Shown piece after piece: positions 6,001-9,000 of a DNA stretch of 64,000 nucleotides (positions are counted from its first letter, which is position 1; each line of letters begins with the position of its first letter). The position numbers were made by a program. Location: assembly GCF_054482595.1 (NCBI RefSeq), contig NZ_CM137008.1, one strand, 5' to 3'.

Positions 6001-9000
6001 TCGCTGTTAAAGCGGCTGTGACAGTACAGTGTTACGCTTGCGTTCAGGCACGCTACCGCCGAAGTTTCCGGCAGCCGCCATCTCCCGTGAACGTAACCCC
6101 TTACTGACAACCTTTCTTTCTACGGCGTAATACAAAAACAGCATCCGGCCTGATAGCCGGATGCTGTTGGCTTAACTTATGCTTCCAGCGGTGCGCGCCA
6201 GTCGTCGGCACCGGAGGTGCCAGATTTGACGTGTTCCCATTCAATTTTGCGGTAGGCCAGTGAAACTTCGAGCAACTGGGTGAACTCGCGTTTCGCCGGG
6301 TCCTGGCAATGCGGCATATGCAGTTTCATATCGACAATCGTCGAATCAGTCAGGCGGGTAGTGAAATAATGCTCCTGTTTGCCTTCCACAGAGGTACGCC
6401 ACCAGTGAAGTTCAGTGGTTGGCAGCATTTCGCCGGAGGCCAGTGCGTTGTACATCAGCGGAACCGCTTTGTTCAGCGCCACGGTAAAAATGAAAGGCTT
6501 GTGAGCACGCTGACCCGCAGGCTGACCGGACTGAGGATCGGTCGGGACAGTAACGTTATGCAGGAATTCCTGCACCAGCATCTCGTCTTCGTGCCCCTGC
6601 ACATAGATGTTGCCGACAGAATCAGCGGTAAATGCACCTGCAGTAATATTTCCCTGGGTCTGACCAGTGATGGAGATATAACACGGTGTTGGCATTTGTA
6701 AACTCCTTGTTAACGTGGTTAATTACTACTTACAATGACCTGCCGTTAATCCCAGGCAGGCAGATGCAGCTCACTTCACGGAACCGCATCATTTTTCAGT
6801 ATTTTTTACATACAAACCGAGCTAGAATTTACGGTTGTCGTAAAAACTATTTTTAAAATCATTAAATCTCTTATTCAGCAATAACTTAATAATATATATC
6901 TGGATAACCATACCCAACTGTTCAAAGTCCGTATTGCCTCCATAAAATGGCCAAAGCTGAATCATGAATAAATATTGTATTTATCCTTTCTGAATTATCA
7001 TTTTGATAATTTTTGAGATATTCCTTAAAAATACCCACTTAATCAATCACAAAACAAATATATAAACAAGCAATCATTAGATTAGCTTATGTTTAATAAA
7101 ATTATTATATAATTCAATAAGATACATAAAAAACTCTATATTTAAATTATTGCCATAATACACCTGACGCGAATTGCACAGGTTCATACAATCTATTTAA
7201 CGCTTGCAGAATACCCCTCTTTACGATCGATAAAAAGTCCTTTTATTATTTATTTTGAAGCGTAAAATGCGGGGTGATGAAGGAGTGGTGATTTTATTTT
7301 CACCGCCATCAAGGCGGCATTTCCGATATTTTTTGCGGTACGAATATGCCGTGTTCATGGCCTGTACGAGATAACATGACGGATCACTTTTATGAGCAAA
7401 AAATTTGAAGGCAGCGTCGCGCCTCGCGAACGTATTAATATATCGTATGTCCCAAAAACAGATGGCCAGACGGCTGAAGTGGAACTTCCGCTTAACATGC
7501 TCGTTGTCGGCGATACCGGAAATACGCAGGAAACATCCTCACTGGATGAACGTCAGGCAGTTTCCGTTAACAAGCACAATTTCGGTGCAGTGATGGCTGA
7601 AGCAGCCATTGGCCTCAATTTTACCGTCCCCGCCACGCTGAAGGGAAGCACAACGGACGATGAGCTGAATGTGGCGCTGAATATCAAGTCACTGGATGAT
7701 TTTTCACCAGATAGCGTGGCCCGGCAGGTTCCGGAAGTGAATAAATTGCTGGAACTGCGTGAAGCACTGACTGCACTGAAGGGGCCGATGGGTAACCTTC
7801 CGGCATTCCGTACCCAGCTCCAGGCATTGCTGGAAAATGAAGAGTCCCGCGAGCAGTTGCTCAAAGAAATCGGCCAGGTGAGCAATAAATAACCACCACT
7901 ATTTCATTAAACAGGGTTATCCAGGCATGACGGCACACAAAAATATCTCCGGGACATACCACCTCTCTGTTGCAGACATTCTGCAGGTGGTTTACCAGGT
8001 ATGTTTCAGCCCGTCCGTTGAAATCAACCAGGATGGTGTGGCTGCGCTGATTACAACACTGGATCGCCGTATCAGTGATCTATTGGATGAGATTATCCAT
8101 TTTTGTGAGTTTCAGCAGAGCGCGTCGCACTGGCAGCGCGTACTTCACTGACGGCGAAAAGCCGGTTTCAGAAACACAGCTAAAACAGAAGGATTTTCAG
8201 TATGTCTTTACAGGAAGAGGAACTCGTTTCCAGTCATGCCGGGCAGCCTGAGCAGGCATCGTCGCTGCTTGATCAAATCATGGCACAGACCCGTATTCAG
8301 CCCGGTTCGGAAGGTTATGACGTTGCCCGCCAGGGTGTGACAGCCTTTATTGCCAGCATCCTGCAATCCACTGCATCTGCCGAACCGGTCAATAAACTGG
8401 CCGTGGACAGCATGATTGCAGATATTGATGAACGCATCAGCCGCCAGATGGATGTCATCATCCATGCGCCTGCCTTTCAGCAGGTCGAGTCGTTCTGGCG
8501 CTCACTGAAAACCATGGTGGATCGCGTTGATTTCCGTGAAAACATCAAGGTCAACGTGCTTCATGTCACCAAGCAGGAACTTCTGGAAGACTTTGAGTTT
8601 GCGCCAGAAATTATTCAGTCCGGATTTTATAAGCACGTTTATTCGTCCGGTTTCGGACAGTTTGGCGGTGAACCCATCGCTGCCGTGCTGGGCGCTTATG
8701 AGTTCAAAAATACCGCGCCTGACATGAAACTGCTGCAATACGTCAGTGCCGTGGGCGCAATGGCGCACGCACCGTTCCTGTCCTCCGTTTCCCCGGAGTT
8801 TATGGGGCTGAACTCGTGGACCGAACTGCCTAATATCAAAGATCTTTATGCCATCTTTGAAGGTCCGGCCTACACCAAATGGCGCGCCCTGCGTGACTCG
8901 GAAGATTCGCGCTATTTAGGGCTTACGGCACCCCGCTTCCTGCTTCGCCAGCCCTATTCACCAACAGATAACCCTGTTAAGAACTTTAACTATTACGAAG

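What the first reader, a model, noticed from the sequence alone, without database searches (positions are those of the whole stretch)
6696..7391. Long AT-rich divergent control region between hcp and tssB with a Fur-box-like repeat
About 690 bp of non-coding, very AT-rich DNA separates the divergently transcribed hcp and tssB. This composition is typical of H-NS-silenced horizontally acquired promoters. An inverted repeat AATTATCATTTTGATAAT at 6993-7010 resembles Fur-box hexamers, and iron/Fur control is established for another E. coli T6SS. Both regulatory assignments are speculative here.
Basis: inference. Interest (0 to 1): 0.4.

Follow-up and report, generated by a model that had tools for sequence, protein, structure and literature searches.

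The report
Known H-NS-silenced T6SS promoter, no Fur box
This AT-rich gap between hcp and tssB is the already-studied two-way promoter region of the common E. coli type VI secretion system 2, which H-NS keeps switched off, and its "Fur-like" palindrome does not behave or score like a real iron-regulator site.

Summary
A 696-bp gap (6696-7391) separates divergent hcp and tssB. Its core is the most AT-rich DNA in the window (25.5% GC against 52.6%). It contains a perfect palindrome, AATTATCA-TTT-TGATAATT, at 6993-7011.

The region is 97-100% identical in 2,228 complete E. coli genomes, including O157:H7. It is the published bidirectional T6SS-2 promoter "t6sP". Deleting hns derepresses it, so the H-NS half of the reading is supported but already known.

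The Fur half fails every test:
- The half-sites point outward with a 3-bp gap, not the canonical 7-1-7.
- The palindrome matches the Fur consensus at 12/19 and scores 8.4 bits on a PWM built from 12 real K-12 Fur operators (11.6-22.8 bits). Composition-matched random DNA does as well (P=0.58).
- Published Fur ChIP-exo in O157 Sakai, which has the identical palindrome, shows no peak between 193 and 288 kb.
- No T6SS gene is in the nine-strain Fur pan-regulon.
- The diverged APEC orthologue responds to hns but not to fur or iron.
- The palindrome is not conserved in other alleles or species.

One extra finding: the hcp leader carries a hairpin (6739-6760, minus strand). It is conserved with compensatory and wobble changes that work only on the hcp-sense RNA. 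It usually shows GGA in its loop, making it a candidate CsrA or stability element.

The parts
6177..6695 (-). hcp (172 aa), first gene of the leftward hcp-vgrG-rhs operon
   Evidence: ORF. Annotated as an Hcp family T6SS effector in the 100%-identical record NZ_CP019359.
6696..7391 (.). The hcp-tssB divergent intergenic control region. It corresponds to the published bidirectional promoter 't6sP' of EHEC T6SS-2.
   Evidence: It is 97-100% identical over at least 80% of its length in 2,228 of 5,426 complete E. coli genomes, one copy each. The Sakai orthologue is ECs0233/ECs0234. Literature.
6703..6708 (-). hcp Shine-Dalgarno AAGGAG (CTCCTT on the + strand); also a GGA motif
   Evidence: Invariant in all 7 aligned lineages.
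6739..6760 (-). Conserved RNA hairpin in the hcp leader: CCUGCC-UGGGAUUAAC-GGCAGG, lying 44-65 nt upstream of the AUG
   Evidence: It is the MFE and centroid hairpin in all 6 diverged lineages. In 10 sequence variants, 60/60 stem cells pair on the hcp-sense RNA against 51/60 on the antisense. Pair 1 swaps C-G for U-A, pair 5 is C-G/U-G/U-A, and pairs 3 and 4 show wobbles. GGA sits at the 5' side of the loop in 9 of 10 variants. No Rfam family matches.
6790..7200 (.). AT-rich core (25.5% GC); presumed H-NS nucleation and spreading platform
   Evidence: Composition. Poorly conserved between alleles (44-62% identity between the diverged lineages; E. albertii 70% to this allele, Yokenella-C. youngae 73%; whole gap). 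Highest polymorphism within this allele at 7073-7217. H-NS role from the literature.
6968..6984 (.). Second AT-only palindrome, ATAAATA-TTG-TATTTAT. It holds the best (13/19) match to the Fur consensus in the gap and a minus-strand TACAAT -10-like hexamer.
   Evidence: A 13/19 match is reached by 46% of random composition-matched sequences.
6993..7011 (.). It is not a Fur box. Each arm also reads as a -35-like hexamer (TTGATA on +, ATGATA on -) and as an 8/10 match to the H-NS motif TCGATAAATT.
   Evidence: Fur PWM 8.4 bits and 12/19 to consensus. No 7-1-7 match with up to 3 mismatches. Promoter-like hexamers. H-NS motif match TTGATAATTT at 7003. The left arm varies: A>G at 7000 in some strains, AATCTCA in E. 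albertii, ATTGTCA in allele C. The repeat is absent in the B2 allele, Yokenella and C. youngae.
7016..7029 (.). AGATATTCCTTAAA, the only 14-mer shared with the diverged B2 allele core. It is palindromic in alleles B (ATTCCTT-A-AAGGAAT) and C (AAGGATATCCTT).
   Evidence: shared k-mers and alignment. Not conserved in E. albertii. Function unknown.
7209..7269 (+). Cross-genus conserved tssB-proximal blocks: GAATACCCCT (7209-7218), AAAAAGTCCTTTTA (7232-7245) and GTAAAATG (7262-7269, with a -10-like TAAAAT/TAGAAT). Candidate tssB core promoter. Also includes TCGATAAAAA (7227-7236), an 8/10 match to the H-NS motif.
   Evidence: 7-way alignment. Low polymorphism at 7218-7275. H-NS motif scan. The promoter assignment is inference; no TSS data were available.
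7355..7391 (+). Conserved tssB leader end: TCATGGCCTG (7355-7364) and the GGA-containing Shine-Dalgarno (7381-7383)
   Evidence: 10-mer shared by the three E. coli alleles. Only 1 segregating site in 7363-7391.
7392..7892 (+). tssB (166 aa), first gene of the rightward structural operon (tssB-tssC-tssE-tssF-tssG-tagH-tssJ-tssK...)

Best explanation
The 696 bp are the bidirectional promoter and leader region of E. coli type VI secretion system 2, in the aspV island. One face drives hcp-vgrG-rhs leftwards and the other drives the tssB structural operon rightwards.

Shown, in part by others: the region is kept off by H-NS. Inferred: H-NS nucleates on and spreads over the roughly 400-bp core of about 25% GC, occluding the weak sigma-70-like promoters on both sides.

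The two ends of the gap are the functionally constrained parts. On the tssB side there is a conserved promoter-proximal block and leader. On the hcp side there is a leader with a conserved RNA hairpin plus a GGA-containing Shine-Dalgarno. This suggests an additional post-transcriptional layer, possibly CsrA or mRNA stability.

The palindrome at 6993-7011 is not a Fur operator. It is most simply a by-product of AT-rich sequence, whose GATAA-type arms resemble Fur hexamers, the H-NS high-affinity motif and -35 hexamers all at once.
For: Identity of the locus:
- 100% match to the E. coli XH990 chromosome with hcp and tssB annotated on either side.
- 99% identity to O157:H7, with the exact palindrome present in Sakai.

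H-NS control:
- The core has the lowest GC in the window.
- hns deletion gives 60-fold z0264 induction, reversed by complementation (PMC5363993).
- gfp/mCherry reporters of both faces are silent in wild type and active in the hns mutant; H-NS is stated to be bound here and several TSS exist (PMC13141884).
- The same hns dependence is seen for the APEC T6SS2 orthologue (PMC5874247).

Against a Fur role:
- 12/19 match to consensus and 8.4 bits, against 11.6-22.8 bits for 12 real operators. The composition-matched null gives a best score of 10.0+/-2.5.
- No canonical 7-1-7 motif with up to 3 mismatches.
- Fur ChIP-exo in Sakai has no peak between 193,087 and 288,115, while the gap lies at 263,438-264,133.
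- ECs0231-0237 and all T6SS gene names are absent from the ChIP-exo and pan-regulon tables.
- fur deletion and iron limitation have no effect in APEC T6SS2.
- Polymorphism within the palindrome equals the regional average, 2/19 against 88/706.
- The palindrome is lost or asymmetric in other alleles and species.

Constrained ends: alignments of 3 E. coli alleles, E. albertii, Yokenella and C. youngae; hairpin folding and covariation.
Against: - Direct H-NS binding to this DNA was not tested here. The primary paper (Kim, Lee, Yoon 2022, J Microbiol 60:928) could not be read, and Wan 2017 contains no EMSA.
- Matches to the H-NS motif are no more frequent than composition predicts (3 observed, 2.5 expected).
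- hns deletion alone gives little protein and no secretion, so other unknown inputs exist.
- The negative Fur ChIP-exo could be a false negative if H-NS occludes the site in vivo.
- The APEC fur/iron experiment was done on the diverged B2 allele, which lacks the palindrome.
- The Sakai delta-fur RNA-seq table was truncated in the held copy.
- Transcription start sites are unknown to me, so the promoter and leader assignments are inference.
Confidence: 0.8

Rival explanations
1. The palindrome is a Fur operator that puts T6SS-2 under iron control, as at the EAEC sci1 (T6SS-1) promoter.
For: It contains one exact GATAAT and one exact ATTATC hexamer. Overlapping 10-12/19 consensus matches recur at 6-bp steps across 6987-7023. 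Fur control is proven for E. coli T6SS-1 in EAEC and APEC.
Against: - The half-sites are everted with a 3-bp gap, not TGATAATnATTATCA.
- 8.4 bits, below all 12 real sites and inside the random AT-rich distribution.
- No ChIP-exo peak and no regulon membership in Sakai with the identical sequence.
- The site lies about 300 bp from the hcp ATG and about 385 bp from the tssB ATG. The sci1 Fur box, by contrast, overlaps the -10 element.
- It is not conserved.
- T6SS-2 in APEC is indifferent to fur and iron.
Confidence: 0.04
2. The palindrome, perhaps with the adjacent conserved GATATTCCTTA element, is the binding site of another dimeric regulator. An example would be an anti-silencer that displaces H-NS under an unknown host signal.
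For: - A perfect 8-3-8 symmetry occurs in only 17% of random composition-matched sequences.
- The right arm TTTGATAA is retained in alleles A and C and in E. albertii.
- The neighbouring 14-mer is the only long word shared with the B2 allele and is itself palindromic in alleles B and C.
- The activator that relieves H-NS is explicitly unknown.
Against: - The symmetry itself is not conserved: the left arm differs in E. albertii, allele C and some allele-A strains.
- There is no extra constraint within the allele.
- The motif occurs nowhere else in the 64-kb window.
- No candidate regulator was identified. The published in-silico scan listed ArgP, CysB, CytR, Fis, LeuO and NarL/P sites, and none explained expression.
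Confidence: 0.12
3. The palindrome marks a pair of back-to-back divergent sigma-70 promoters. TTGATA is a -35 on the + strand with AAAAAT downstream. ATGATA is a -35 on the - strand with TACAAT downstream. These would give long leaders to tssB and hcp.
For: The promoter scan finds both (+ 7003-7032; - 7001-6974), each 9/12. Several TSS are reported for this divergent promoter. The -10-like TACAAT stretch (6957-6985) has only 1 polymorphic site and is identical in E. albertii.
Against: Promoter-like hits are not enriched (6 observed, 4.3+/-2.0 expected). The -35 and -10 pairs are not conserved in the B2, Yokenella or C. youngae sequences. No TSS coordinates were available to me.
Confidence: 0.15

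Closest known systems
EHEC O157:H7 T6SS-2 bidirectional promoter 't6sP' between hcp3 and tssB (z0264/z0265; ECs0233/ECs0234). Sources: Wan 2016/2017, Kim 2022, Vazquez-Lopez 2026.
   Same: Same locus. The gap is also 696 bp with 99% identity, the identical palindrome and the same flanking genes. It is H-NS-repressed and silent in the laboratory, with several TSS and CsrA effects on hcp3.
   Different: Only strain-level SNPs. For example, this window has G at 6756, giving a C-G pair in the leader hairpin, where every other distinct allele-A sequence compared (44 of 45), Sakai included, has A (a U-G wobble).
APEC/ExPEC (phylogroup B2-type) T6SS2 hcp2B-vipA2 intergenic region (Ma 2018; Yi 2019)
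   Same: Orthologous architecture: a divergent hcp-vgrG operon opposite tssB, a 705-bp AT-rich gap, and the same conserved ends and leader hairpin. It is repressed by H-NS.
   Different: The core is almost unalignable (56% identity) and the palindrome is absent. This allele is in 543 genomes, against 2,228 for the window's allele. Experiments there showed no fur or iron effect. CpxR-P binds at about -210 to -187 of hcp2B; that site is not conserved in this allele.
EAEC sci1 (T6SS-1) Fur/Dam epigenetic switch (Brunet 2011)
   Same: An E. coli T6SS promoter upstream of tssB that is silent in rich medium.
   Different: sci1 has two Fur boxes resembling the consensus. One overlaps the -10 element and a GATC site, and both are confirmed by FURTA and EMSA. 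Here no sequence passes a Fur model, there is no in vivo Fur occupancy, and the control is by H-NS.
H-NS silencing of horizontally acquired T6SS clusters (Salmonella SPI-6, Vibrio parahaemolyticus T6SS1, Edwardsiella), as cited
   Same: AT-rich promoter DNA in an accessory island, derepressed in hns mutants.
   Different: Nothing material; this is another instance.
CsrA-controlled leaders with GGA in a hairpin loop plus GGA in the Shine-Dalgarno (general CsrA/RsmA paradigm; my own knowledge)
   Same: The hcp leader has a conserved hairpin with GGA at the 5' side of the loop and AAGGAG at the ribosome-binding site about 45 nt downstream. CsrA is reported to lower hcp3 and tssC mRNA in EHEC.
   Different: One of the 10 tabulated variants (L102) lacks the loop GGA; a more diverged metagenome leader (L101) also appears to, by eye. 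In Yokenella and C. youngae the GGA is predicted to pair at the top of the stem. No binding data exist. The TSS is unknown, so inclusion of the hairpin in the mRNA is inferred.

Membership tests
Fur box / Fur-repressed operator | Sequence matching the 19-bp consensus GATAATGATAATCATTATC, or a Fur weight matrix, at the level of proven sites | tested here: not met
   The palindrome scores 12/19 and 8.4 bits. Twelve K-12 operators score 11.6-22.8 bits (leave-one-out 10.1-21.2). Random composition-matched 696-mers reach a best of 10.0+/-2.5 bits, and P(at least the observed best of 9.4) = 0.58.
Fur box / Fur-repressed operator | Half-site geometry: inverted heptamers TGATAAT-n-ATTATCA (7-1-7), or at least 3 contiguous in-phase GATAAT-like hexamers | tested here: not met
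   Here the arrangement is ATTATCA-ttt-TGATAAT, with arms everted and a 3-bp spacer. No 7-1-7 match with up to 3 mismatches exists anywhere in the gap.
Fur box / Fur-repressed operator | Fur occupancy in vivo | tested here: not met
   Literature data checked here. Sakai Fur ChIP-exo lists peaks at 193,075 and 288,115 with none between, while the gap is at 263,438-264,133 and carries the identical palindrome. Caveat: H-NS occlusion is possible.
Fur box / Fur-repressed operator | Expression responds to fur deletion or iron limitation | tested here: not met
   T6SS genes are absent from the nine-strain Fur pan-regulon. APEC T6SS2 clpV2 and hcp2B are unchanged by fur deletion or iron limitation, but that strain carries the allele without the palindrome. 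The Sakai RNA-seq sheet is not held.
Fur box / Fur-repressed operator | Operator overlaps the core promoter (-35/-10) | tested here: inconclusive
   The site lies about 300 bp from the hcp ATG and about 385 bp from the tssB ATG. It overlaps only unverified promoter-like hexamers, and no TSS coordinates are available.
H-NS-silenced xenogeneic promoter | Markedly AT-rich relative to the host genome | tested here: met
   Core 25.5% GC against 52.6% for the window; it is the lowest-GC stretch in 64 kb.
H-NS-silenced xenogeneic promoter | Lies in accessory or horizontally acquired DNA | tested here: met
   Present in 2,235 of 5,426 complete E. coli genomes. A diverged allele is in 543 and a third in about 29. 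Close relatives occur in E. albertii, Yokenella and Citrobacter.
H-NS-silenced xenogeneic promoter | Derepressed when hns is deleted | not testable with these tools
   Published for the 99%-identical EHEC locus and for APEC.
H-NS-silenced xenogeneic promoter | Direct H-NS binding | not testable with these tools
   Asserted in PMC13141884 with reference to Kim 2022, which I could not read. Motif matches to TCGATAAATT (3 at 8/10 or better, including 7227 TCGATAAAAA and 7003 TTGATAATTT) equal the composition-matched expectation.
CsrA-bound mRNA leader | GGA presented in a hairpin loop plus a second GGA at or near the Shine-Dalgarno, within bridging distance | tested here: met
   The hairpin at 6739-6760 (-) has GGA in the loop in 9 of 10 variants, and the SD is AAGGAG about 45 nt downstream.
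CsrA-bound mRNA leader | CsrA binding and CsrA-dependent translation or stability | not testable with these tools
   Only indirect evidence: hcp3 and tssC mRNAs are reported as negatively regulated by CsrA in EHEC.
Structured cis-regulatory RNA | Base pairs maintained by compensatory and strand-specific wobble changes | tested here: met
   60/60 stem cells pair on the sense strand against 51/60 on the antisense. Pair 1 swaps C-G for U-A; pair 5 is C-G/U-G/U-A. Sense folding is 1.4-9.3 kcal/mol more stable than antisense. The sample is small (10 variants in a few lineages) and there is no Rfam match.

The most novel reading that the evidence does not exclude
The conserved hairpin in the hcp leader (6739-6760, minus strand) may be an undescribed cis-regulatory RNA element of enterobacterial T6SS-2. 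It is kept across E. coli alleles, E. albertii, Yokenella and Citrobacter by compensatory and wobble changes, and it usually displays GGA. It could be a CsrA docking site or a 5' stabiliser that gates Hcp synthesis after transcription. That would help explain why hns deletion raises hcp3 and tssB mRNA yet yields almost no protein in LB, and why T6SS-2 stays non-secreting even after promoter replacement. A still more speculative reading, not excluded, is that the palindrome plus the GATATTCCTTA element binds an unknown anti-silencer.
Probability: 0.35. Interest if true: 0.35.

Novelty: already known. Interest (0 to 1): 0.15.

Why it matters
T6SS-2 is the most common E. coli type VI system and is implicated in EHEC and ExPEC virulence, but nobody has yet switched it on in vitro.

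Ruling out iron and Fur saves effort. It also points attention to two things: what relieves H-NS, and the conserved leader and promoter-proximal blocks. The hcp leader hairpin is a concrete, testable candidate for the missing post-transcriptional brake.

The region itself and its H-NS silencing are already described, so the finding as written adds nothing new.

Tried and rejected
- **Rfam scan** of 6100-7600 at E up to 10: only sub-threshold noise.
- **Sigma-70 promoter scan**: 6 hits against 4.3+/-2.0 expected, so uninformative.
- **Sigma-54 -24/-12 motifs**: looked for by eye near both genes, none convincing; no formal scan was run.
- **Small ORFs in the gap** (36-56 aa): rejected as genes. 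The core is not conserved, and indels break the 39-aa ORF at 7255-7374 in other alleles.
- **H-NS motif TCGATAAATT**: density is 3x the window average but equals the composition-matched expectation.
- **CpxR box GTAAA-N4-8-GTAAA**: three one-mismatch candidates in this allele. The experimentally bound APEC segment (L002 2298-2321) has no clear counterpart here.
- **Possible tssB-leader helix** (7305-7325 / 7341-7361): pairing is only partly kept in other lineages by eye; not pursued.
- **RcsB, NarL, SlyA, FNR and IHF resemblances** of the palindrome and neighbouring elements: considered from memory only, none fitted well. They are leads, not tests.
- **Kim et al. 2022** (TSS and H-NS data): not held.
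- **Sakai delta-fur RNA-seq sheet**: truncated in the held supplement.
- **Search for H-NS ChIP data on O-island 7**: nothing found.
- **MAFFT alignment of the hairpin** (A3): mis-registers the Yokenella group by one column, so pairs were counted with a script instead of the count of structure pairs.
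Full report
**Observation**

hcp occupies 6177-6695 on the minus strand and tssB 7392-7892 on the plus strand. The gap is therefore exactly 6696-7391, 696 bp.

GC is 32.6% over the gap and 25.5% over 6790-7200, against 52.6% for the 64-kb window. The lowest-GC 400-bp stretch of the window starts at 6801.

The repeat exists. Read fully, it is a perfect 8-3-8 palindrome, AATTATCA-TTT-TGATAATT, at 6993-7011.

It is not statistically remarkable:
- 47% of composition-matched random sequences contain a perfect inverted repeat with 7-bp arms, and 17% one with 8-bp arms.
- Two GATAAT/ATTATC hexamers are expected by composition (P=0.29).
- A sister palindrome of the same kind lies at 6968-6984.

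**What the locus is**

The 696 bp match the E. coli XH990 chromosome at 100%. There hcp, vgrG and an Rhs core protein lie to the left, and tssB, tssC, tssE, tssF, tssG, tagH, tssJ and tssK lie to the right.

The region is present once per genome at 97-100% identity over at least 80% of its length in 2,228 of 5,426 complete E. coli genomes. These include O157:H7 (99%) and O104:H4 (98%).

In O157 Sakai the flanking genes are ECs0233 (tssB) and ECs0234 (hcp). The palindrome is identical there.

This is E. coli T6SS-2. The gap is the published "bidirectional promoter t6sP" between hcp3 and tssB (PMC13141884).

**H-NS**

Published experiments on the 99%-identical EHEC locus show the following:
- T6SS genes are almost silent in vitro and rise sharply in an hns mutant. 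z0264 rises 60-fold, and complementation reverses this (PMC5363993).
- A gfp/mCherry reporter of the gap is dark in wild type in both directions and active in the hns mutant (PMC13141884).
- H-NS is stated to be bound between hcp3 and tssB, and several transcription start sites exist (PMC13141884 citing Kim, Lee, Yoon 2022).

I could not read Kim 2022. Wan 2017 has no EMSA. The direct-binding statement is therefore second-hand.

The APEC T6SS2 orthologue is likewise derepressed by hns inactivation (PMC5874247).

My own computations agree on composition only. The TCGATAAATT motif matches at 8/10 three times, including TCGATAAAAA at 7227 and TTGATAATTT inside the palindrome. That is what composition predicts.

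**Fur**

Six independent lines argue against a Fur operator.

1. *Geometry.* The arms read ATTATCA-ttt-TGATAAT. This is everted relative to the canonical TGATAAT-n-ATTATCA and has a 3-bp spacer. No 7-1-7 match with up to 3 mismatches exists in the gap.
2. *Consensus.* The palindrome matches the 19-bp consensus at 12/19. The best site in the gap scores 13/19, and 46% of composition-matched random sequences reach that.
3. *Weight matrix.* I built a matrix from 12 Fur-controlled K-12 promoter regions: fepA-fes, fepD-entS, fepB-entC, fhuA, cirA, fiu, fecI, fecA, fhuF-yjjZ, exbB, ryhB and tonB.

| Sequence scored | Bits |
|---|---|
| 12 real Fur sites | 11.6-22.8 (leave-one-out 10.1-21.2) |
| The palindrome | 8.4 |
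| Best site in the gap | 9.4 |
| Best site in random AT-rich 696-mers | 10.0 +/- 2.5 (P = 0.58 for reaching 9.4) |

4. *In vivo occupancy.* Fur ChIP-exo in Sakai, under iron-replete and iron-starved conditions, lists consecutive peaks at 193,075 and 288,115 with nothing between. The gap lies at 263,438-264,133 (PMC10164565 Dataset 2). ECs0231-0237 and all T6SS gene names are absent from the ChIP-exo and pan-regulon tables of all nine strains.
5. *Genetics.* In APEC TW-XM, fur deletion or iron limitation induces T6SS1 but not T6SS2 clpV2 or hcp2B (PMC5874247). A 2023 review lists Fur only for E. coli T6SS-1.
6. *Evolution.* See the next section.

There are caveats. APEC carries a diverged allele without the palindrome. 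H-NS might also mask a site in ChIP. For these reasons a small residual probability remains.

**Comparative anatomy**

I compared the following sequences:
- three E. coli alleles: this one, a B2/APEC-type allele in 543 genomes, and a third in about 29 genomes;
- E. albertii, Yokenella regensburgei and Citrobacter youngae;
- 80 metagenome loci.

All have divergent hcp and tssB separated by 635-705 bp of 29-34% GC DNA. Hcp is 97-100% identical across these genera, but most pairs of gap sequences are only 44-62% identical (E. albertii 70% to this allele; Yokenella and C. youngae 73% to each other).

The palindrome is not conserved:
- The left arm is AATCTCA in E. albertii, ATTGTCA in allele C and ATTATCG in some strains of this allele.
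- It is absent in the B2 allele, Yokenella and C. youngae.
- Among 45 distinct sequences of this allele, 2 of its 19 positions vary, against 88 of 706 overall. That shows no extra constraint.

What is conserved across genera are the two ends:
- *hcp side:* the Shine-Dalgarno and a hairpin.
- *tssB side:* GAATACCCCT (7209-7218), AAAAAGTCCTTTTA (7232-7245), GTAAAATG with a -10-like TAAAAT/TAGAAT (7262-7269), TCATGGCCTG (7355-7364) and the GGA Shine-Dalgarno.

I infer that these ends hold the real core promoters and leaders, and that the AT-rich core is a composition-selected silencing platform. This remains inference because no TSS coordinates were available.

**The hcp leader hairpin (additional finding)**

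On the hcp-sense strand, CCUGCC-UGGGAUUAAC-GGCAGG (6760 down to 6739) lies 44-65 nt upstream of the AUG.
- It is the MFE and centroid hairpin in all six diverged lineages.
- In ten sequence variants every one of 60 stem cells pairs on the sense RNA, against 51 of 60 on the antisense.
- Pair 1 switches between C-G and U-A. Pair 5 runs C-G, U-G, U-A. Pairs 3 and 4 show U-G and G-U wobbles.
- Sense folding is always more stable than antisense, for example -12.8 against -3.5 kcal/mol in L102.

This strand-specific pattern argues for an RNA element rather than a DNA site.

GGA sits at the 5' side of the loop in 9 of 10 variants. AAGGAG forms the ribosome-binding site. CsrA is reported to lower hcp3 mRNA in EHEC. 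A CsrA docking site or a 5' stabiliser is therefore a reasonable hypothesis.

The sample is small, one of the ten tabulated variants lacks the GGA (a more diverged leader, L101, also appears to, by eye), no Rfam family matches, and the TSS is unknown.

**Verdict**

- The region is ordinary for a silenced accessory secretion system.
- Interest is low.
- The only possibly new item is the conserved leader hairpin.

Noticed in passing
window 6739-6760 (minus strand): A conserved hairpin in the hcp 5' leader. Compensatory and wobble substitutions work only on the hcp-sense RNA, and GGA is in the loop in 9 of 10 variants. It may be a CsrA or stability element, has no Rfam match, and I did not find it described.
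   Followed up: yes
window 7016-7029; L002 and L009 counterparts: AGATATTCCTTAAA is the only 14-mer shared between the otherwise scrambled AT-rich cores of the two main E. coli alleles. It forms perfect palindromes in alleles B (ATTCCTT-A-AAGGAAT) and C (AAGGATATCCTT). It loosely resembles an RcsB/NarL-type box (from memory only).
   Followed up: partly
window 6130-6176 (minus strand): Just after the hcp stop there is a canonical intrinsic terminator, ACAGCAUCCGGC-UAUCAG-GCCGGAUGCUGU followed by UUUUU. It corresponds to the published 'h3R region I' that uncouples vgrG from hcp. There is a weak Rfam sot2652 hit at 6140-6169.
   Followed up: partly
window 7209-7269: Cross-genus conserved blocks lie upstream of tssB, including TACCCCT (a NarL-type heptamer by memory) and a -10-like TAAAAT/TAGAAT. 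This is the likely true tssB core promoter, about 120 nt upstream of the ATG.
   Followed up: partly
window 7927-8151: A 74-aa ORF lies between tssB and tssC. It is annotated as a hypothetical protein (WP_000123970.1) in RefSeq and as ECs0232 in Sakai. It is absent from the B2-type allele, where tssC follows tssB directly.
   Followed up: no
window about 28,500-28,900: This is the second most AT-rich stretch of the window (26-30% GC), just after the last T6SS-cluster ORFs. It may be another H-NS target or the island boundary.
   Followed up: no
L098 and L023 (metagenome contigs): In two contigs the hcp Shine-Dalgarno is preceded by something other than the usual leader. In L098 it is the sequence that normally lies downstream of hcp (window about 6000-6130). 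This suggests tandem hcp copies or rearrangements that bypass the divergent promoter.
   Followed up: no
L010-L013 against the window: Hcp is 97-100% identical between E. coli, E. albertii, Yokenella and Citrobacter youngae, while the adjacent TssB is only 76-92% identical and the gap 48-70%. That is unusually strong conservation, or recent exchange, of hcp alone.
   Followed up: no
window 6756: This window has G where every other allele-A sequence examined has A. It therefore carries the minority C-G form of a hairpin pair that is U-G in the other 44 of 45 distinct allele-A sequences.
   Followed up: yes
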